A program made the translations under genes and the position numbers. The notes under the pieces were generated by a model, which was not told the origin of the DNA, did not search any database, and saw nothing but the letters and a program-made list of their open reading frames with translations. From the NCBI RefSeq assembly GCF_001677475.2, contig NZ_CP015229.1: 64,000 bases of DNA; one strand, given 5' to 3'. Origin of the DNA: Escherichia coli (lineage in GTDB: Bacteria > Pseudomonadota > Gammaproteobacteria > Enterobacterales > Enterobacteriaceae). Shown here one piece after another: positions 15,915 through 24,963 of the stretch; the stretch's first letter is position 1; each line of letters opens with the position of its first letter.

Positions 15915-17288
15915 ATGGCACTTTGGGGCGGGCGTTTTACCCAGGCAGCAGATCAACGGTTCAAACAATTCAACGACTCACTGCGTTTTGATTACCGTCT
16001 GGCGGAGCAGGATATTGTTGGCTCTGTGGCCTGGTCCAAAGCCCTGGTAACGGTCGGTGTGCTGACCGCAGAAGAACAGGCGCAACTGGAAGAGGCGCTG
16101 AACGTGCTGCTGGAAGATGTTCGCGCCAGGCCACAACAAATCCTTGAAAGCGACGCCGAAGATATCCATAGCTGGGTGGAAGGCAAACTGATCGACAAAG
16201 TGGGTCAGTTAGGCAAAAAACTGCACACCGGGCGTAGCCGTAATGATCAGGTAGCGACTGACCTGAAACTGTGGTGCAAAGATACCGTTAGCGAGTTGCT
16301 GACGGCTAACCGGCAGCTGCAATCGGCGCTGGTGGAAACCGCACAAAACAATCAGGACGCGGTAATGCCAGGTTACACTCACCTGCAACGCGCCCAGCCG
16401 GTGACGTTCGCTCACTGGTGTCTGGCGTATGTTGAGATGCTGGCGCGCGATGAAAGCCGTTTGCAGGATGCGCTTAAGCGTCTGGATGTCAGCCCGCTAG
16501 GCTGTGGCGCGCTGGCGGGAACAGCCTATGAAATCGACCGTGAACAGTTAGCAGGCTGGCTGGGCTTTGCTTCGGCGACCCGTAACAGTCTCGACAGCGT
16601 TTCTGACCGTGACCACGTGCTGGAACTGCTTTCTGCTGCCGCTATCGGCATGGTGCATCTGTCGCGTTTTGCTGAAGACCTGATCTTCTTTAACACCGGC
16701 GAGGCGGGGTTTGTGGAGCTTTCTGACCGCGTGACTTCCGGTTCATCATTAATGCCGCAGAAGAAAAATCCGGATGCGCTGGAGCTGATTCGCGGTAAAT
16801 GCGGTCGGGTGCAGGGTGCGTTAACCGGCATGATGATGACGCTGAAAGGTTTGCCGCTGGCTTACAACAAAGATATGCAGGAAGACAAAGAAGGTCTGTT
16901 CGACGCGCTCGATACCTGGCTGGACTGCCTGCATATGGCGGCGCTGGTGCTGGACGGCATTCAGGTGAAACGTCCGCGTTGCCAGGAAGCGGCTCAGCAG
17001 GGTTACGCCAACGCCACTGAACTGGCGGATTACCTGGTGGCGAAAGGCGTACCGTTCCGCGAGGCGCACCATATTGTTGGTGAAGCGGTGGTGGAAGCCA
17101 TTCGTCAGGGCAAACCGCTGGAAGATCTGCCACTCAGTGAGTTGCAGAAATTCAGTCAGGTGATTGACGAAGATGTCTATCCGATTCTGTCGCTGCAATC
17201 GTGCCTCGACAAGCGTGCGGCAAAAGGCGGCGTCTCACCGCAGCAGGTGGCGCAGGCGATTGCTTTTGCGCAGGCGCGGTTGGGGTAA
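15915..17288 (+). CDS. argH: Argininosuccinate lyase
   Basis: 457-aa [19 protein letters not shown].. Confidence 0.96.
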
Positions 17289-17311
17289 GAACATTTATAT
17301 GTACAAATTTG

Positions 17312-17340
17312 AGCCTGGCTTATCGCCGGGCTTTTTTATG
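17312..17340 (+). terminator. Intrinsic terminator of argCBH
   Basis: Hairpin gcctggcttatcgccgggc followed by TTTTTT. Confidence 0.6.
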
Positions 17341-17342
17341 GC

Positions 17343-17459
17343 AAAAAAAAGCGGATCCTGGAGATCCGCAAAAGTTCACGTTGGCTTTAGTTATTCGAGT
17401 TGAGAAACTCTCGAAACGGGCAGTGACTTCAAGGGTTAAAAGAGGTGCCGCTCCGTTTC
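17343..17459 (-). ncRNA. oxyS: OxyS small regulatory RNA (about 109 nt plus U-tail)
   Basis: Minus strand reads GAAACGGAGCGGCACCTCTTTTAACCCTTGAAGTCACTGCCCGTTTCGAG..GCGGATCTCCAGGATCCGC then a U-run; divergent from oxyR. Confidence 0.93.
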
Positions 17460-17554
17460 TGTGAGCAATTATCAGTCAGAATGCTTGATAGGGATAATCG
17501 TTCGTTGCTATGCTACCTATCGCCGCGAACTATCGTGGCAATGGAGGATGGATA
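17460..17554. promoter_or_regulatory. oxyS/oxyR divergent promoter region with OxyR binding site
   Basis: Position between the oxyS 5' end and the oxyR start; exact operator not delimited. Confidence 0.55.
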
Positions 17555-18472
17555 ATGAATATTCGTGATCTTGAGTACCTGGTGGCATTGGCCGAACACC
17601 GCCATTTTCGGCGTGCGGCAGATTCCTGCCACGTTAGCCAGCCGACGCTTAGCGGCCAAATTCGTAAGCTGGAAGATGAGCTGGGCGTGATGTTGCTGGA
17701 GCGGACCAGCCGTAAAGTGTTGTTCACCCAGGCGGGAATGCTGCTGGTGGATCAGGCGCGTACCGTGCTGCGTGAGGTGAAAGTCCTTAAAGAGATGGCA
17801 AGCCAGCAGGGCGAGACGATGTCCGGACCGCTGCATATTGGTTTGATTCCTACGGTTGGACCGTACCTGCTACCGCATATTATCCCGATGCTGCACCAGA
17901 CATTTCCAAAGCTGGAAATGTATCTGCATGAAGCACAGACCCACCAGTTACTGGCGCAACTGGACAGCGGCAAACTCGATTGCGTGATCCTCGCGCTGGT
18001 GAAAGAGAGCGAAGCATTCATTGAAGTGCCGTTGTTTGATGAGCCAATGTTGCTGGCTATCTATGAAGATCACCCGTGGGCGAACCGCGAATGCGTACCG
18101 ATGGCCGATCTGGCAGGGGAAAAACTGCTGATGCTGGAAGATGGTCACTGTTTGCGCGATCAGGCAATGGGTTTCTGTTTTGAAGCCGGGGCGGATGAAG
18201 ATACACACTTCCGCGCGACCAGCCTGGAGACGCTGCGCAACATGGTGGCGGCAGGTAGCGGGATCACTTTACTGCCAGCGCTGGCTGTGCCGCCGGAGCG
18301 CAAACGCGATGGGGTTGTTTATCTGCCGTGCATTAAGCCGGAACCACGCCGCACTATTGGCCTGGTTTATCGTCCTGGCTCACCGCTGCGCAGCCGCTAT
18401 GAGCAGCTGGCAGAGGCCATCCGCGCAAGAATGGATGGCCATTTCGATAAAGTGTTAAAACAGGCGGTTTAA
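17555..18472 (+). CDS. oxyR: LysR-family peroxide-sensing regulator OxyR
   Basis: ORF-track 17510..18472 trimmed to Met at 17555 ([23 protein letters not shown]..), 305 aa. Confidence 0.95.
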
Positions 18473-19855
18473 ACCGTTTAACGCAGCTACCCGATAGGCT
18501 TCCGCCATGGTCGGGTAGTTAAAGGTGGTGTTGACGAAGTACTCAATAGTGTTGCCGCCACCTTTCTGTTCCATAATCGCCTGACCGATATGAATAATTT
18601 CGGCAGCGCGCTCGCCAAAGCAGTGAATACCCAGAATCTCTTTTGTTTCCCGATGGAACAAAATTTTCAGCGTGCCCACGTTCATGCCGACGATTTGTGC
18701 ACGTGCCAGATGTTTAAACTGGGCGCGGCCCACTTCATATGGCACTTTCATCGCGGTCAGCTGCTGTTCGGTTTTGCCCACAGAGCTGATTTCCGGGATG
18801 GTGTAAATGCCGGTAGGGATATCTTCAATCAGATGCGCGGTGGCTTCGCCTTTTACCAGCGCCTGCGCGGCAATGCGCCCCTGGTCATAGGCCGCTGATG
18901 CCAGGCTCGGATAACCAATCACGTCGCCCACCGCGTAAACGTGCGGCTGTGCGGTCTGATACATGCTGTTGACCTTCAGCTGTCCGCGACTGTCAGTTTC
19001 CAGCCCAATGTTCTGTAACGCCAGCGAATCGGTATTACCGGTACGACCGTTGGCATAGAGCAGGCAGTCAGCTTTCAGTTTTTTACCCGACTTCAGATGC
19101 ATGATCACACCGTCGTCACAGCCTTCGATCTTCTCGTACTCTTCGTTGTGACGAATCACTACGCCACTGTTCCAGAAGTGATAGGAGAGAGAATCTGACA
19201 TCTCTTGATCGAGAAATGCCAGCAGGCGATCGCGGGTGTTGATCAGATCCACTTTTACATCCATACCGCGGAAGATCGACGCATATTCACAGCCGATCAC
19301 TCCAGCACCATAGATAAGTACATGGCGCGGTTCGTGGTGCATGCTGAGAATTGAGTCGCTGTCGTAAATGCGTGGATGGGTGAAATCAACATCTGTTGGA
19401 TGATATGGACGAGAGCCGCAGGCAATAACAAATTTTTCAGCGGTTAGCGTTTCAACGCTGCCGTCCGGGCAATCCAGCGCCAACGTATGCTCGTCAACAA
19501 AGCGAGCGTTCCCCTGCAATATTTCACAGTGATTACGTTCGTAAAATCCCTGACGCATGCGCGTTTGTTGATTAATCACGTTATCGGCATGGTTAAGGAT
19601 ATCGGCAAAAGAAGAGCGGAGCAGTCGGGAATGGTCGCTGTATAGTGGGTTTTGATTGAATTCTATAATGCGGCTGACGGCGTGACGGAGAGCTTTCGAC
19701 GGGATGGTGCCCCAGTGGGTGCAACCGCCGCCAACATTTTGATAACGCTCGATAACTGCGACGCGCGCACCTTGCTTAACCAGGCCCATTGCAGCGCCTT
19801 CGCCGCCGGGGCCGGAACCTATTACTATGGCATCGTAATCGTAGGAATGTGGCAT
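18455..19855 (-). CDS. sthA: Soluble pyridine nucleotide transhydrogenase
   Basis: 466-aa [26 protein letters not shown].. (FAD/NAD Rossmann GxGxxG); convergent 18-bp overlap with oxyR. Confidence 0.95.
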
Positions 19856-20184
19856 GGTAGGGCTTACCTGTTCTTATACATAAAAGCAACAGAATGGTAA
19901 CATTTTATCGCGGGTAAGCCAATTGATCCCCGTCATTAATCTGGCTATAGCGTGAGCGGCCTTTGCTTTGTCTGCCCCCTTCTTAACCCATTTATTTACT
20001 ATTAATCGCTTTTTCTTATGGCTGATAGTTTTATCTTGCCGAAGCGTGCTTTTTTGTTATTGTCTTTATGAAATATTCTTATAAAACAAACATATAAATA
20101 TTTTATATTGATGAGTTATTTGTATTTATACCATCAATAAAATCCGTTAATTAGCCTGTTTATAAGTGAATAAAGGAATAGCCG

Positions 20185-21351
20185 ATGATCGAACACTATA
20201 TTCGAGGGTTTGAGGAAGAACTGCGTGAGATCCGCCATCAGATCCACGAAAACCCGGAGCTGGGATTACAAGAATTTAAAACCAGTGCTTTGGTGGCGGA
20301 AAAGCTGCGTCAGTGGGGCTATGAAGTAGAGCAAGGACTGGCGACGACGGGGATAGTGGCCACGTTAAAAGTGGGCGACGGAGAGAAAAGTATTGGCCTG
20401 CGGGCGGATATGGATGCGCTGCCAATTTATGAAAATAGTGGCAAGCCCTGGGCCAGTAAACATCCTGGTTTAATGCACGCCTGCGGGCATGACGGGCATA
20501 CCACCATACTGCTGGGGGCCGCGCGTTATTTTGCCGAAACCCGCCGTTTTAACGGCACGTTACGTCTTATCTTCCAGCCTGCGGAAGAGATGATTAACGG
20601 CGGTGAGATCATGGTTAAAGAGGGGCTTTTTGATCATTTCCCCTGCGATGTCATTTTCGGCATGCATAACATGCCCGGTCTGCCGGTGGGTAAGTTTTAT
20701 TTCCAGCCAGGGGAACTGATGGCGTCAATGGATCAGTTCCATATTACAGTTCGTGGTTGTGGCGGACACGGTGCGATCCCGCACAAAGCCATCGATCCGG
20801 TGCTGGTTGCCGCACATATCACCACCGCATTACAAAGCATTGTGTCGCGCAATGTCGATCCGCTGGAAGCGGCGGTAATTACCGTCGGCAGCATTGTTGC
20901 GGGTGAGGCGGCTAACGTCATTCCTGACAGTGCTGAGATGAAAATCAGCGTCCGCTCTCTTAGCCGCGATACCCGACAACTTCTTCTGACCCGTATTCCT
21001 GCTCTGGCACAAACCCAGGCTGCCAGCTTTGGTGCTACGGCTGAGGTTACGCATGTTAACGGTACACCGGTATTAGTGAATGACGAGGAGATGGCGCGCT
21101 TCGCCTGGCAGGTGGCGTGTAAAACGTTTGGTGAAGATCGGGCCGAGTTTGGCATCAAGCCCCTGATGGGCAGTGAGGATTTCTCTTTCATGCTGGAAGC
21201 CCAGCCGAAAGGCGCTTTTTTGCTGTTCGGTAATGGCGATGTCGGGGAAGGTTCCTGCATGGTGCATAACCCGGGTTACGACTTCAACGATGCAAGTCTG
21301 GTCCCGGCATGCAGCTACTGGGGCGCACTGGTAGAAGCTTGGCTGCAATAA
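20185..21351 (+). CDS. M20D-family metal-dependent amidohydrolase (hippurate hydrolase / N-acyl-amino-acid deacylase-like)
   Basis: 388-aa ORF; HACGHDGH metal-binding signature; GGAGG-like RBS (aaaggaa) upstream; no signal peptide. Confidence 0.8.
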   Translation: MIEHYIRGFEEELREIRHQIHENPELGLQEFKTSALVAEKLRQWGYEVEQGLATTGIVATLKVGDGEKSIGLRADMDALPIYENSGKPWASKHPGLMHACGHDGHTTILLGAARYFAETRRFNGTLRLIFQPAEEMINGGEIMVKEGLFDHFPCDVIFGMHNMPGLPVGKFYFQPGELMASMDQFHITVRGCGGHGAIPHKAIDPVLVAAHITTALQSIVSRNVDPLEAAVITVGSIVAGEAANVIPDSAEMKISVRSLSRDTRQLLLTRIPALAQTQAASFGATAEVTHVNGTPVLVNDEEMARFAWQVACKTFGEDRAEFGIKPLMGSEDFSFMLEAQPKGAFLLFGNGDVGEGSCMVHNPGYDFNDASLVPACSYWGALVEAWLQ

Positions 21352-21393
21352 ATAAAACAACACACAACAACACTTTTTGGCAAGGAACATGGA

Positions 21394-22710
21394 ATGACGG
21401 CGATCGTAAATGAAACCGTGAGTGTGAAGAAAAAGCCCAGCGGTAAGCGGGTGATTTTTGCTTCGGCGTTTGGCAATGCGCTCGAATTTTTTGATTTTGG
21501 CGTTTACAACTTTTTTGTGGTCTATATCAGTACGCTTTTCTTCCCACCCAGCGCTGATCACAATGTCGCGCTGTTACTGGCATTTGCAACATTTGGCGTG
21601 AGTTTTTTTATGCGCCCGCTTGGTGGAATTATCGTCGGGGCCTGGGCCGATCGCTTCGGACGCAAACCCGCGATGGTGTTCACCATTGCCCTGATGAGCC
21701 TCGGTACACTGATGATCGGCATCGCACCGACGTATGAAACGGCGGGCTATTGGGGAACCGCGACGCTGGTGCTGGCGCGTCTAATTCAGGGCGTTGCGGC
21801 AGGAGGCGAAGTCGGTGCCTCAATGTCTTTGTTGGTTGAATCAGCTCCGGCAAATCGTCGCGGCTTTTACAGCAGTTGGTCACTGGCGACTCAAGGCCTG
21901 GCAACAACCTTTGGTGGTGTTGTCGCTTTAGGTTTAAGCGCATGGCTGCCCTTTGCGACAGGTTCAGAAACCGTAATGGCTGAATGGGGCTGGCGTGTGC
22001 CATTTTTTATTGGCGTGTTATTAGCACCTATCGGTTGCTGGTTGCGTCTGAGCCTGGAAAATGACGTACCTGAGCTAGTGCGCAATAAAAAAGCTGCTAC
22101 CAGCGAAAGCGCGTTCTCTCTGCTCCTGCAACATAAGGCGACTATCGTTAACGGCGTTTTACTCGCTATTGGTAGCACGGTCGCAACCTATATCTCCCTC
22201 TTTTATTACGGCACCTGGGCGGCGAAGTATCTGGCGATGCCTCAACATTATTCTCATGCAGCGATGTTACTGGCGGGCGTTATTACGTTTGTGGGTGCGC
22301 TGCTTGTGGGGATGTTGTGCGATTCGGTCGGGCGTAAAAAGCTGATTTTAATCTCCCGTGTGATGGTGCTGATCTGTAGCTGGCCGTCATTCTGGCTGTT
22401 GGTGAATTACCCAAGCCCTGGCATGTTGCTGACGGTGGTTTTCGTGATGGTCAGCTTTACCACGCTTGGCGGTGTGCCGGTAATGTTGCTGATCTCTGAA
22501 CTGTTGCCGAAACGGATTCGGGCATTGGGTTTTGCGCTGGTTTATAGCATTGGTGTGGCAATCTTTGGCGGTTTTGCTCAATATTTCGCTACGCAATCCA
22601 TCGTGTTGCTGGATAGTTTGACAGCTCCGGCGTGGTATTTGGGTGGAGGCACGTTGCTGTCGATGCTGGCGTTGTTGTACGTAAAAGAACCGGCCAAAGA
22701 ATTGCAGTAA
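21394..22710 (+). CDS. Major facilitator superfamily permease, metabolite:H+ symporter (MHS) type
   Basis: 438-aa hydrophobic ORF; [13 protein letters not shown] (GxxxDRxGRK) motif; 42 bp after the amidohydrolase, same strand. Confidence 0.8.
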
Positions 22711-22816
22711 ATATGTTTTATTGCGTTACCGTTCATTCACAATACTGGAGCAATCCAGTATGTTCATTCTCTGGTATAGTGCCAGCAGTACTTTTGGCAA
22801 GGATTCAGACATCGTG

Positions 22817-23464
22817 ATGGGCGTAAGAGCGCAACAAAAAGAAAAAACCCGCCGTTCGCTGGTGGAAGCCGCATTTAGCCAATTAAGTGCTGAACGCAGC
22901 TTCGCCAGCCTGAGTTTGCGTGAAGTGGCGCGTGAAGCGGGCATTGCTCCCACCTCTTTTTACCGGCATTTCCGCGACGTAGACGAACTTGGTCTGACCA
23001 TGGTTGATGAGAGCGGTTTGATGCTGCGCCAACTCATGCGCCAGGCGCGTCAGCGTATTGCCAAAGGCGGGAGTGTGATCCGTACCTCGGTCTCCACATT
23101 TATGGAGTTCATCGGTAATAATCCGAACGCCTTCCGGTTATTATTGCGGGAACGCTCCGGCACTTCCGCTGCGTTTCGTGCCGCCGTTGCGCGTGAAATT
23201 CAGCACTTCATTGCGGAACTTGCGGACTATCTGGAACTCGAAAACCACATGCCTCGTGCGTTTACTGAAGCGCAAGCCGAAGCCATGGTGACGATTGTCT
23301 TCAGTGCGGGTGCCGAGGCGTTGGACGTCGGCGTCGAACAACGTCGGCAATTAGAAGAGCGACTGGTACTGCAACTGCGAATGATTTCGAAAGGGGCTTA
23401 TTACTGGTATCGCCGTGAACAAGAGAAAACCGCAACTATTCCGGGAAATGTGAAGGACGAGTAA
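22817..23464 (+). CDS. fabR: TetR-family repressor of unsaturated fatty acid biosynthesis
   Basis: ORF-track 22721..23464; start placed at ATG 22817 ([15 protein letters not shown].., 215 aa); alternative in-frame starts at 22721 and 22760 cannot be excluded. Confidence 0.85.
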
Positions 23465-23823
23465 TGAAACAAGCAAATCAAGATAGAGGTACGCTGCTGC
23501 TGGCGTTGGTTGCTGGCTTATCGATTAATGGTACTTTCGCAGCTCTGTTTAGCTCCATAGTGCCATTTTCTGTATTCCCGATTATTTCCCTGGTGCTGAC
23601 GGTTTACTGCCTGCATCAACGTTATCTTAATCGCACTATGCCGGTAGGCTTGCCGGGTCTGGCAGCTGCCTGTTTTATTCTCGGCGTACTGCTGTACAGC
23701 ACGGTAGTTCGTGCGGAATATCCGGATATCGGCTCTAACTTCTTCCCGGCAGTACTCTCCGTCATTATGGTGTTCTGGATTGGCGCGAAGATGCGTAACC
23801 GTAAGCAGGAAGTTGCTGAGTAA
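23464..23823 (+). CDS. yijD: Small inner-membrane protein
   Basis: 119-aa hydrophobic ORF; start overlaps the fabR stop (TAATG). Confidence 0.85.
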
Positions 23824-23833
23824 TCGGTATCAT

Positions 23834-23860
23834 GCCGGATGCTGGCGCATCCGGCATGGG
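23834..23860. terminator. Palindrome between convergent yijD and trmA (likely bidirectional terminator / REP-like)
   Basis: tgccggatgctggcgcatccggca inverted repeat. Confidence 0.45.
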
Positions 23861-23862
23861 TT

Positions 23863-24963
23863 TTACTTCGCGGTCAGTAATACGCCGCACTCCATATGGT
23901 GCGTGTAGGGGAACTGATCAAACAGAGCCAGACGTTCGACCTTGTGCGTCTGGCTTAATGTTTCCAGATTCTTGCATAACGTTTCCGGATTGCAGGAGAT
24001 ATACAGAATACGTGGATACGCCTGCACCATTTTCTCGGTTTCACTGTCCAGACCGCTGCGCGGTGGGTCGACAAAAATGGTTTCGCACTGATAACTCTTT
24101 AAGTCGATCCCTTGCAGGCGGTTAAACTCGCGCACACCATTCATCGCCTGAGTAAATTCTTCTGCCGCCATACGAATAATTTGTACGTTATCAATATGGT
24201 TAGCGGCAATGTTGTATTGCGCAGCAGCAACCGACGGCTTAGCGATTTCGGTGGCTAATACCCGATCAAAATTGCGCGCCAGTGCTAATGAAAAGTTACC
24301 GTTGCCGCAGTACAGCTCCAGTAAATCGCCTTTTGAGCCTTTGGTTACGTCCAGCGCCCATTCCAGCATCTGAATATTCATCGCCGCGTTCGGCTGGGTA
24401 AAGCTGTTTTCTACCTGACGGTAGATCATCTCTTTCCCTGCGACCGGCAGACGTTCATCGATGTAATCTTGATCCAGCTCGATTTTGGTTTTCGTTGCCC
24501 GACCAATCAGATGCACATTCAGATTCTGCGCTCGCAGTGCATCGCGCAGGGCTTCCGCTTCCTGACGCCACTCATCATCCAGCTTTTTATGGTACAGCAG
24601 GGAAACCACCGCCTGATTACTCAACGTAGTGAGGTAATCAATCTGGAACAACTTGTGGCGCAGAACGGGATTATTACGCACACCCGCAATCATCGCCGTC
24701 ATCAACTGGTTGATGAGTTCACTGGCAGCGGGGAAGCTATCCACGCGGATGCGGCTTTTGGTTTGTTGATCGAAAATGATGTGGTACAGGTCATCGCCAT
24801 CGTGCCAGATGCGGAACTCCGCGCGCATCCGGTAATGACTGACCGGCGAGCGAAACACTTCCGGAACCAGGTCAGAAAACGGTGCCATCATACTTTGCAA
24901 ACGTACCACTTTTTCGGCTAACTGCGCTTCATACTGTTCTGTTGGAAGGTGTTCGGGGGTCAT
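23863..24963 (-). CDS. trmA: tRNA (uracil54-C5)-methyltransferase
   Basis: 366-aa [26 protein letters not shown].. Confidence 0.95.

What the first reader, a model, noticed from the sequence alone, without database searches (positions are those of the whole stretch)
19921..20184. Strongly AT-rich leader upstream of the amidohydrolase gene
The roughly 260 bp preceding the amidohydrolase start are conspicuously AT-rich, with runs such as ttatgaaatattcttataaaacaaacatataaatattttatattgatgagttatttgtatttatacc. This contrasts with the GC-balanced flanks. Such tracts in enterobacteria are typical of H-NS-silenced or otherwise tightly controlled horizontally acquired promoters; the region also lies immediately upstream of the divergently oriented sthA. 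No regulator gene sits inside the module, so control is presumably exerted here by global factors.
Basis: seen in the sequence. Interest (0 to 1): 0.4.

Follow-up and report, generated by a model that had tools for sequence, protein, structure and literature searches.

The report
Conserved AT-rich promoter region, accessory operon
The stretch is real and is the most AT-rich DNA in the window, and it is best read as the strongly conserved control region of a two-gene accessory operon (an aminoacylase and a transporter) carried by about a quarter of E. coli strains; this is an ordinary kind of feature, and silencing by H-NS is plausible but untested.

Summary
Positions 20050-20149 have 17% GC, the lowest value in the 64 kb at every scale tested.

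The tract belongs to a two-gene module: an M20 aminoacylase (20185-21351) and an MHS-type transporter (21394-22710). The module lies between sthA and fabR. It is present in 1505 of 5426 complete E. coli genomes. The other genomes carry an unrelated 73-bp filler plus the last 35 bp of the transporter gene, so the K-12 state is a deletion.

Outside Escherichia, the nearest M20 relative has 63% identity and comes from a betaproteobacterium. The module therefore looks foreign in origin. It is also old: E. albertii has it at the same site, and its genes have native GC3 and dN/dS of about 0.05.

The new result is strong purifying selection on the tract. E. coli and E. albertii differ at 3-6 of 145 positions with no indels, against 30-40% divergence at neighbouring four-fold sites. 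Composition-preserving A<->T changes are also depleted 8-10-fold, so the sequence itself is constrained and not only its AT content.

There is no Rfam hit, RNA structure, terminator or conserved small ORF, and no transcription-factor motif beats chance. H-NS binding is plausible on AT and TpA richness alone and was not testable here.

Verdict: an ordinary AT-rich promoter region that is unusually extreme and unusually conserved.

The parts
18455..19855 (-). sthA (soluble pyridine nucleotide transhydrogenase), a core gene transcribed divergently from the module
   Evidence: ORF. RefSeq annotation of the collinear O157 and EDL933 loci.
19856..19974 (.). Intergenic core shared by all E. coli (44.5% GC). 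It holds the proximal sthA promoters. The EDL933 Cappable-seq TSSs 10, 32 and 40 nt upstream of the ATG map to 19865, 19887 and 19895 on the minus strand.
   Evidence: 5425 of 5426 genomes match query positions 1-119. TSS table of PMC10469882. My PWM scan predicts TSSs at 19866, 19887 and 19895.
19975..20184 (.). Module-specific intergenic DNA (27.6% GC), the true extent of the AT-rich tract. It has no indels across 6 E. coli alleles and E. albertii.
   Evidence: Junction mapped by comparison with K-12. Composition. Alignment A3.
20050..20149 (.). Most extreme core: 17% GC and the highest TpA density in the window.
20040..20184 (+). Promoter-proximal block under strong purifying selection. It differs at 3-6 of 145 positions between E. 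coli and E. albertii. A<->T changes number 0-1 against 7-10 expected.
20036..20063 (+). Best-scoring sigma-70 candidate for the M20 gene: -35 TTGCCG, 16-nt spacer, extended -10 TGtTATTGT. The predicted TSS is near 20070, giving a 115-nt AT-rich 5'UTR. The score is unexceptional, and the -7 T is lost in one ETEC allele.
   Evidence: PWM scan. Alignment column 208. This is inference only.
20104..20143 (+). Alternative -10 candidates (TATATT 20104-20109, TACCAT 20129-20134, TAAAAT 20138-20143). They would give 5'UTRs of 35-70 nt.
   Evidence: PWM scan. Inference only.
20007..20007 (-). Distal sthA TSS reported in EDL933, 152 nt upstream of the ATG. It lies in module-specific DNA. Its -10 (20020-20015) is CATAAT in O157 but CATAAG in this window.
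   Evidence: PMC10469882 Table S5. Coordinate transfer. Alleles.
20173..20178 (+). Shine-Dalgarno AAGGAA, 6-7 nt before the M20 ATG at 20185.
   Evidence: Read directly from the sequence. Invariant in all alleles.
20185..21351 (+). M20 aminoacylase family gene (called 'hippuricase' or 'amidohydrolase' in some records; Z5522 in EDL933 by position).
   Evidence: TIGR01891 scores 358.9 bits against a cut-off of 153.75. Annotation. Source names. Z5521 is udhA.
21394..22710 (+). MFS metabolite/H+ symporter, named 'citrate-proton symporter' by PGAP. The last 35 bp (22676-22710) are retained in K-12-type genomes.

Best explanation
Positions 19975-20184 are the cis-regulatory region of a two-gene accessory operon. 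The operon encodes an M20 aminoacylase and an MHS-type transporter, probably for uptake and hydrolysis of an N-acyl amino acid.

The region contains the operon's promoter, Shine-Dalgarno sequence and operator sites. These sites would be read by regulators encoded elsewhere in the genome. Because the tract is extremely AT- and TpA-rich, it is probably also a short H-NS/StpA nucleation patch. That patch would keep the operon low until a specific factor or condition relieves it.

Shown:
- The composition.
- The position of the tract inside module-specific DNA.
- Strong purifying selection on the actual sequence.
- Absence of RNA-leader features.

Inferred:
- Which promoter is used.
- H-NS occupancy.
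- The identity of the specific regulators.
- The substrate.
For: - Composition is the window minimum at all scales, with the highest TpA density.
- The tract lies directly upstream of an intact gene that has a good SD and ATG.
- The genes are functional: dN/dS is 0.04-0.05.
- The tract has no indels and differs at only 3-6 of 145 positions between E. coli and E. albertii. The adjacent 300-nt coding blocks differ at 28-42% of four-fold sites. Binomial p is 1e-14 to 1e-18.
- The deficit holds when only A/T sites are compared (2-3% against 35-40%).
- It also holds for composition-preserving A<->T changes (0-1 observed, 7-10 expected; p 2e-5 to 4e-3).
- Neighbouring intergenic regions diverge about 10% and have indels.
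- The tract is single-copy and not a repeat.
- My PWM scan reproduced three published sthA TSSs to within 1 nt. This lends some credit to its plus-strand candidates.
- Neither module gene is a regulator.
Against: - I found no mapped TSS for the M20 gene. The held supplements of the EDL933 Cappable-seq paper were truncated.
- A strict sigma-70 consensus scan finds nothing, and the best PWM candidate is unexceptional.
- None of 25 recalled transcription-factor consensus motifs beats dinucleotide shuffles.
- For H-NS, the 10-bp nucleation motif is at chance level.
- Predicted curvature is at the 94th percentile only.
- The genes themselves are not AT-rich.
- No ChIP or hns-mutant data for this locus were found in the papers and supplements searched.
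Confidence: 0.6

Rival explanations
1. Pure xenogeneic silencing. The tract is a horizontally acquired promoter kept off by H-NS, which recognises only AT-richness. No dedicated sequence-specific regulator is involved.
For: Extreme AT and TpA content. The M20 gene has a foreign phyletic pattern. There is no regulator in the module. Z5522/Z5523 do not appear in the held part of an EHEC iModulon table (weak, because the file was cut).
Against: Composition-preserving A<->T substitutions are depleted 8-10-fold and there are no indels. A composition-only constraint would tolerate both. The genes have native GC3 and are under purifying selection, so they must be expressed under some condition. The acquisition predates the E. 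coli / E. albertii split. The nucleation motif and curvature are unexceptional.
Confidence: 0.2
2. Transcribed AT/U-rich 5' leader. Transcription starts near 20070, and the 115-nt leader is the target of post-transcriptional control by an sRNA with Hfq, by CsrA, or by Rho-dependent termination.
For: The best-scoring plus-strand sigma-70 candidate (-35 at 20036, extended -10 at 20058-20063) predicts such a leader. The leader region is highly conserved.
Against: No Rfam family matches. The RNA fold z-score is -0.71. There is no terminator-like site. The promoter score is reached by about 29% of random 345-bp windows. The -7 T of its -10 element is lost in one natural allele. The two mini-ORFs are not conserved as peptides.
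Confidence: 0.12
3. The tract hides a small gene, either a peptide or an sRNA, and that gene accounts for the conservation.
For: High conservation without indels. A 38-aa ORF lies at 19968-20084, and two 9-codon ORFs start at 20068 and 20111.
Against: The 38-aa ORF has TGG changed to TAG in E. albertii. The 20068 mini-ORF loses its ATG in E. albertii and in EDL933, and it carries most of the non-synonymous variation in the tract. None of these ORFs has an SD. There is no terminator and no stable fold.
Confidence: 0.05
4. Non-functional AT-rich scar, either junction debris from the insertion or the result of mutational drift.
For: The tract sits at the left edge of module-specific DNA, and variation clusters at the junction (19975-19990).
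Against: Divergence is 6-10 times below that of neighbouring four-fold sites, including in the immediately adjacent coding blocks.
Confidence: 0.03

Closest known systems
H-NS-repressed bgl operon of E. coli (PMC2646131, seen)
   Same: It is a catabolic operon with an AT-rich silencer next to the promoter. It is variably present across E. coli lineages and silent under laboratory conditions.
   Different: For bgl, H-NS binding and derepression have been demonstrated, and the operon carries its own regulator, BglG. Here H-NS binding is untested, there is no local regulator, and the structural genes have genome-average GC.
Short AT-rich H-NS nucleation patches at native-GC operons, for example the proU (proVWX) regulatory elements (from my own knowledge)
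   Same: A patch of roughly 100-200 bp of very AT-rich DNA flanks the promoter of otherwise GC-normal genes.
   Different: proU is a core operon with mapped high-affinity TCGATAAATT-type sites. Here the best match to that motif is 8 of 10, which is at chance level.
Spurious promoters in AT-rich horizontally acquired DNA that are suppressed by H-NS (Singh et al. 2014, PMC3923964, listed)
   Same: There are many overlapping -10-like hexamers on both strands. A minus-strand TSS has been mapped inside the tract in EDL933.
   Different: Those regions are usually long, intragenic and poorly conserved. This one is short, intergenic and under strong purifying selection.
abgAB-abgT of E. coli K-12, a pair of M20-family aminoacyl hydrolases with a transporter (from my own knowledge)
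   Same: It pairs an M20-type amidohydrolase with a dedicated importer for an acylated amino-acid-like substrate.
   Different: abg has a divergent LysR regulator (AbgR) and a different transporter family. The present module has no regulator and uses an MFS/MHS-type carrier.

Membership tests
H-NS (xenogeneic silencing) target | AT content far above the genome average over at least 100-200 bp | tested here: met
   GC is 17% over 100 bp and 24.8% over 145 bp, against 52.4% for the window. This is the window minimum at all scales.
H-NS (xenogeneic silencing) target | TpA-step-rich, flexible AT DNA | tested here: met
   18 TpA per 100 bp against a mean of 4.2 and sd of 2.0. This is the window maximum.
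H-NS (xenogeneic silencing) target | Foreign origin of the DNA | tested here: inconclusive
   The M20 orthologue is found only in Escherichia, and the next relatives are Betaproteobacteria at 63% or less. Against a recent foreign origin: GC3 is native (0.57), the synteny is shared with E. albertii, and divergence is at species level. The origin of the AT tract itself is unknown. The Silvimonas upstream region has 61% GC.
H-NS (xenogeneic silencing) target | High-affinity nucleation motif (TCGATAAATT-like) | tested here: not met
   The best match is 8 of 10 (20134-20143). The probability of an equal or better match in shuffles is 0.54.
H-NS (xenogeneic silencing) target | Intrinsic curvature | tested here: not met
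   The wedge-model maximum is 19 degrees, the 94th percentile of the window. AA/TT periodicity is at about the 95th-98th percentile. The model parameters were recalled from memory, so this test is rough.
H-NS (xenogeneic silencing) target | H-NS occupancy in vivo and derepression in hns mutants | not testable with these tools
   No mention of Z5522/Z5523 in paper texts, or in the five supplement sets searched for them. The H-NS ChIP paper's supplements had no hit for the neighbouring gene names or 'hippuricase'.
cis-regulatory RNA leader (riboswitch or attenuator) | Match to a described RNA family | tested here: not met
   The Rfam E-value scan of 17000-24000 finds only OxyS at 17350-17459 and a chance hit inside the transporter gene.
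cis-regulatory RNA leader (riboswitch or attenuator) | Stable or conserved secondary structure, and a terminator | tested here: not met
   MFE z-score is -0.71. No terminator-like sites were found.
cis-regulatory RNA leader (riboswitch or attenuator) | Conserved leader peptide | tested here: not met
   The small ORFs lack an SD and are broken or altered in E. albertii and EDL933.
Bacterial sigma-70 promoter / divergent regulatory region | -35 and -10 elements with correct spacing | tested here: inconclusive
   The strict scan gives 0 hits. The PWM scan gives several moderate plus-strand candidates.
Bacterial sigma-70 promoter / divergent regulatory region | Experimentally mapped TSS | tested here: inconclusive
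   On the sthA side, TSSs lie 10, 32, 40 and 152 nt upstream in EDL933, and the last is inside the tract. On the M20 side, nothing was found in the truncated supplements.
Bacterial sigma-70 promoter / divergent regulatory region | Purifying selection on non-coding sequence | tested here: met
Mobile genomic island | Integrase, IS element, tRNA target, flanking direct repeats, or deviant GC | tested here: not met
   The module has only two genes, neither a mobility gene. No junction repeats were found. Gene GC is 52-54%.
M20 aminoacylase / amidohydrolase subfamily (TIGR01891) | Score above the curated cut-off over the full length | tested here: met
   358.9 bits against a cut-off of 153.75, covering residues 13-372. 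Scores for the specific equivalogs (CpsA, DoeB2) are below their cut-offs, so the substrate is unknown.

The most novel reading that the evidence does not exclude
The accessory module's AT-rich tract is a shared bidirectional control hub. It would rewire a core metabolic gene as well as control the accessory operon.

In the roughly 28% of E. coli that carry the module, everything beyond 119 bp upstream of the sthA start codon is module DNA. In O157, a single C-to-A change at 20015 turns CATAAG into CATAAT. A distal sthA TSS is mapped 8 nt downstream of that element, inside module DNA.

If this tract couples sthA (NADPH/NADH balance) to the accessory operon, it would be a clear case of accessory DNA changing the regulation of a core gene. 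The coupling could act through H-NS, through supercoiling, or through an unknown sequence-specific factor.
Probability: 0.15. Interest if true: 0.45.

Novelty: new member of a known kind. Interest (0 to 1): 0.3.

Why it matters
The finding gives a compact and testable case. A 190-bp tract of 17-28% GC lies in front of GC-normal genes that were acquired long ago. The tract is far more conserved than neighbouring synonymous sites.

The case separates two ideas that are usually conflated: constraint on AT content, which is what H-NS reads, and constraint on the exact sequence, which implies specific factors.

It also documents a clean two-state polymorphism in E. coli. The module is present in 1505 genomes and a 73-bp filler in 3918. 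The polymorphism changes the upstream context of the core gene sthA.

The biological payoff is modest unless the operon's substrate or regulator proves interesting.

Tried and rejected
- **RNA element.** The Rfam scan, the RNA fold and the terminator scan were all negative.
- **Small ORFs.** The 38-aa ORF at 19968-20084 has a stop codon in E. albertii. The 9-codon ORFs at 20068 and 20111 lack an SD and are not conserved as peptides.
- **Repeats.** Direct and inverted repeats in the tract are short and typical of AT-rich DNA. The ATTGATG-N18-CATCAAT inverted repeat at 20107-20138 was not pursued.
- **Motifs seen by eye.** The ArcA-like GTTAATTA at 20146 occurs at chance frequency in the window. 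The Nac/LysR-like ATA-N9-TAT and 23 other recalled consensus motifs all gave P of 0.29 or more against dinucleotide shuffles.
- **H-NS motif.** At chance level.
- **Curvature.** Unexceptional.
- **Is the K-12 73-bp filler a diverged copy of the tract?** There is no similarity above shuffles.
- **Is the low divergence due to recent recombination between E. coli and E. albertii?** Rejected, because the adjacent 300-nt blocks of sthA and M20 show 28-42% four-fold divergence.
- **Is the low divergence due to base composition?** Rejected.
- **Donor context.** The closest non-Escherichia M20 gene (Silvimonas) has no adjacent transporter or regulator, and its upstream region has 61% GC.
- **Literature.** No text hits for Z5522, Z5523 or WP_000569560. 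'Hippuricase' together with O157 returns only Campylobacter papers. Supplements of the five papers searched contained nothing on the module genes.

Full report
**Observation**

The window is an E. coli chromosome segment with the gene order argCBH - oxyS - oxyR - sthA(-) - M20 aminoacylase - MHS transporter - fabR - yijD - trmA(-) - btuB.

The lowest-GC window of 264, 185, 150 or 100 bp anywhere in the 64 kb falls in this spot every time. Positions 20050-20149 have 17% GC, and the next lowest 100-bp window elsewhere has 28%. TpA steps reach 18 per 100 bp, against a mean of 4.2 and sd of 2.0.

The flanks are GC-balanced, and the quoted string is present. The only correction concerns the first 55-65 bp of the interval. 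They belong to a GC-normal core that is shared by all E. coli.

**What the DNA belongs to**

A search of 5426 complete E. coli genomes shows that positions 19856-19974 are universal. Positions 19975-22675 occur in only 1505 genomes. The other 3918 genomes carry a single-copy 73-bp filler at this site. The filler is unrelated to the module.

K-12-type genomes keep 22676-22813 at 100% identity. This stretch includes the last 35 bp of the transporter ORF. Family profiles align through residues 433-435 of the 438-residue protein. So the 35 bp are truly part of the gene, and the K-12 state is a deletion derivative.

The AT-rich tract lies entirely in module-specific DNA. It is the 210 bp between the left junction and the M20 start codon.

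**Origin and age of the module**

Among one genome for each of 100,044 species, the only close M20 relative is in E. albertii (96% amino-acid identity). The next relatives are Silvimonas (63%) and other Betaproteobacteria and Alphaproteobacteria (46-57%). No Salmonella, Citrobacter or Klebsiella orthologue was found. This pattern supports a foreign origin.

The acquisition is nevertheless old:
- E. albertii has the same sthA - 329 bp - M20 - MHS - fabR arrangement.
- Its module genes diverge from the E. coli genes as much as the flanking core genes do. dS is 0.31 for M20 and 0.58 for MHS, against 0.48 for sthA.
- GC3 is native at 0.57, and dN/dS is 0.04-0.05.

The closest donor-like locus (Silvimonas) has 61% GC upstream of its M20 gene, and it has no adjacent transporter or regulator. 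The AT-rich tract was therefore probably not imported with the genes from such a donor.

**The main new result: selection on the tract**

Six E. coli alleles and E. albertii align over the 329-bp spacer without a single indel. Between E. coli and E. albertii, the 145 bp before the start codon differ at 3-6 positions. The immediately adjacent 300-nt blocks of sthA and M20 differ at 28-42% of four-fold degenerate sites. Binomial p is 1e-14 to 1e-18.

Recent recombination of the spacer is thereby excluded. Other intergenic regions of the same locus diverge about 10% and do have indels.

The deficit is not a composition artefact. A/T four-fold sites differ at 35-40%, whereas A/T sites in the tract differ at 2-3%.

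Substitutions that preserve AT content (A<->T) are also depleted. I observed 0-1 against 7-10 expected, with p between 2e-5 and 4e-3. These comparisons share the E. albertii branch, so they should be treated as one test. The constraint therefore acts on the sequence itself and not merely on AT-richness.

**What the tract is not**

- No Rfam family matches.
- There is no stable RNA fold (z = -0.71).
- There is no terminator.
- There is no conserved small ORF.
- It is not a repeat or a mobile-element end.

**Promoters**

A strict consensus scan finds nothing. I also ran a PWM scan whose hexamer frequencies I recalled from memory, so it is heuristic only.

On the minus strand, the scan predicts TSSs at 19866, 19887 and 19895. 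Published Cappable-seq data for EDL933 place sthA TSSs 10, 32, 40 and 152 nt upstream of the start codon (PMC10469882 Table S5). After coordinate transfer these map to 19865, 19887, 19895 and 20007. Three of the four match my predictions to within 1 nt.

The fourth TSS lies inside module DNA. Its -10 element is CATAAT in O157 but CATAAG in this window and in the other alleles. It may therefore be specific to the O157 lineage.

For the M20 gene, the best candidate has its -35 at 20036 and an extended -10 at 20058-20063. It predicts a 115-nt AT-rich leader, but its score is ordinary. Weaker candidates would give 35-70-nt leaders. I found no mapped TSS for the M20 gene, because the held supplements were truncated.

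**H-NS**

AT and TpA richness are the only predictors met. The 10-bp nucleation motif is at chance level. Wedge-model curvature is at the 94th percentile. The genes themselves are GC-normal, so at most a short nucleation patch is expected.

No ChIP or hns-mutant data for Z5522/Z5523 could be found. The Z numbers rest on Z5521 being udhA. From established knowledge that H-NS occupancy in E. coli tracks AT content closely, I put the probability of H-NS binding at about 0.65-0.7. I put the probability that H-NS alone explains the regulation at about 0.2.

None of 25 recalled transcription-factor consensus motifs beats dinucleotide shuffles. No specific regulator can therefore be named.

**Conclusion**

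The finding is a real and extreme AT-rich tract. It is best explained as the conserved promoter and operator region of an old accessory operon that is polymorphic for deletion. It is probably bound by H-NS, but it is clearly under sequence-specific constraint.

This is a new example of a well-known kind of element. Interest is modest at 0.3. The more interesting possibility that remains open is that module DNA reshapes the upstream control of the core gene sthA.

Noticed in passing
window 19975-22675, against the K-12-type locus L002 3120-3192: There is a clean two-state polymorphism in complete E. coli genomes. The module is in 1505 genomes and an unrelated single-copy 73-bp filler is in 3918. 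The filler is in frame with the retained last 11 codons of the transporter (FLTFALTFYWIFIDDTLRLSGRFP|[11 protein letters not shown]). Its origin is unknown.
   Followed up: partly
window 20007 (minus strand), with its -10 at 20020-20015: A distal sthA TSS mapped in EDL933 (152 nt upstream of the ATG) lies in module-specific DNA. The O157 alleles have an A at 20015, which makes the -10 CATAAT. The window and the other alleles have CATAAG.
   Followed up: partly
window 21532 (plus strand): The EDL933 Cappable-seq supplement lists a TSS at 5056730, reported in several conditions. This position is 138 nt inside the transporter ORF.
   Followed up: no
window about 20785-21393: The 3' half of the M20 gene and the 42-bp M20-MHS spacer are much more conserved between E. 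coli and E. albertii than the 5' half of M20 or the transporter gene. Four-fold differences are 0-9 per 38-60 sites, and the spacer has 0 of 42 differences. This suggests either a recombination tract or an internal control element for the transporter.
   Followed up: no
window 20185-22710: Within E. coli, four-fold divergence between module alleles (0.15-0.23) is 2-3 times that of the adjacent sthA gene (0.05-0.08). The window's transporter gene is only 94.3% identical to the O157 allele.
   Followed up: no
window about 19927 (strain IAL7254, hits H60/H90): One genome has an IS481-family transposase inserted about 72 bp upstream of the sthA start codon. This is just upstream of the predicted -35 element of the main sthA promoter.
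   Followed up: no
window 17350-17459 (minus strand): The OxyS sRNA is present (139.5 bits), in its expected place between argH and oxyR.
   Followed up: yes
window 19936-19954 and 20030-20048: There is a 19-nt direct repeat, 74% identical (TTAATCTGGCTATAGCGTG / TTTATCTTGCCGAAGCGTG), with 94-nt spacing. One copy lies in the shared core and the other in the only GC-richer patch of the tract. Its significance is unknown.
   Followed up: no
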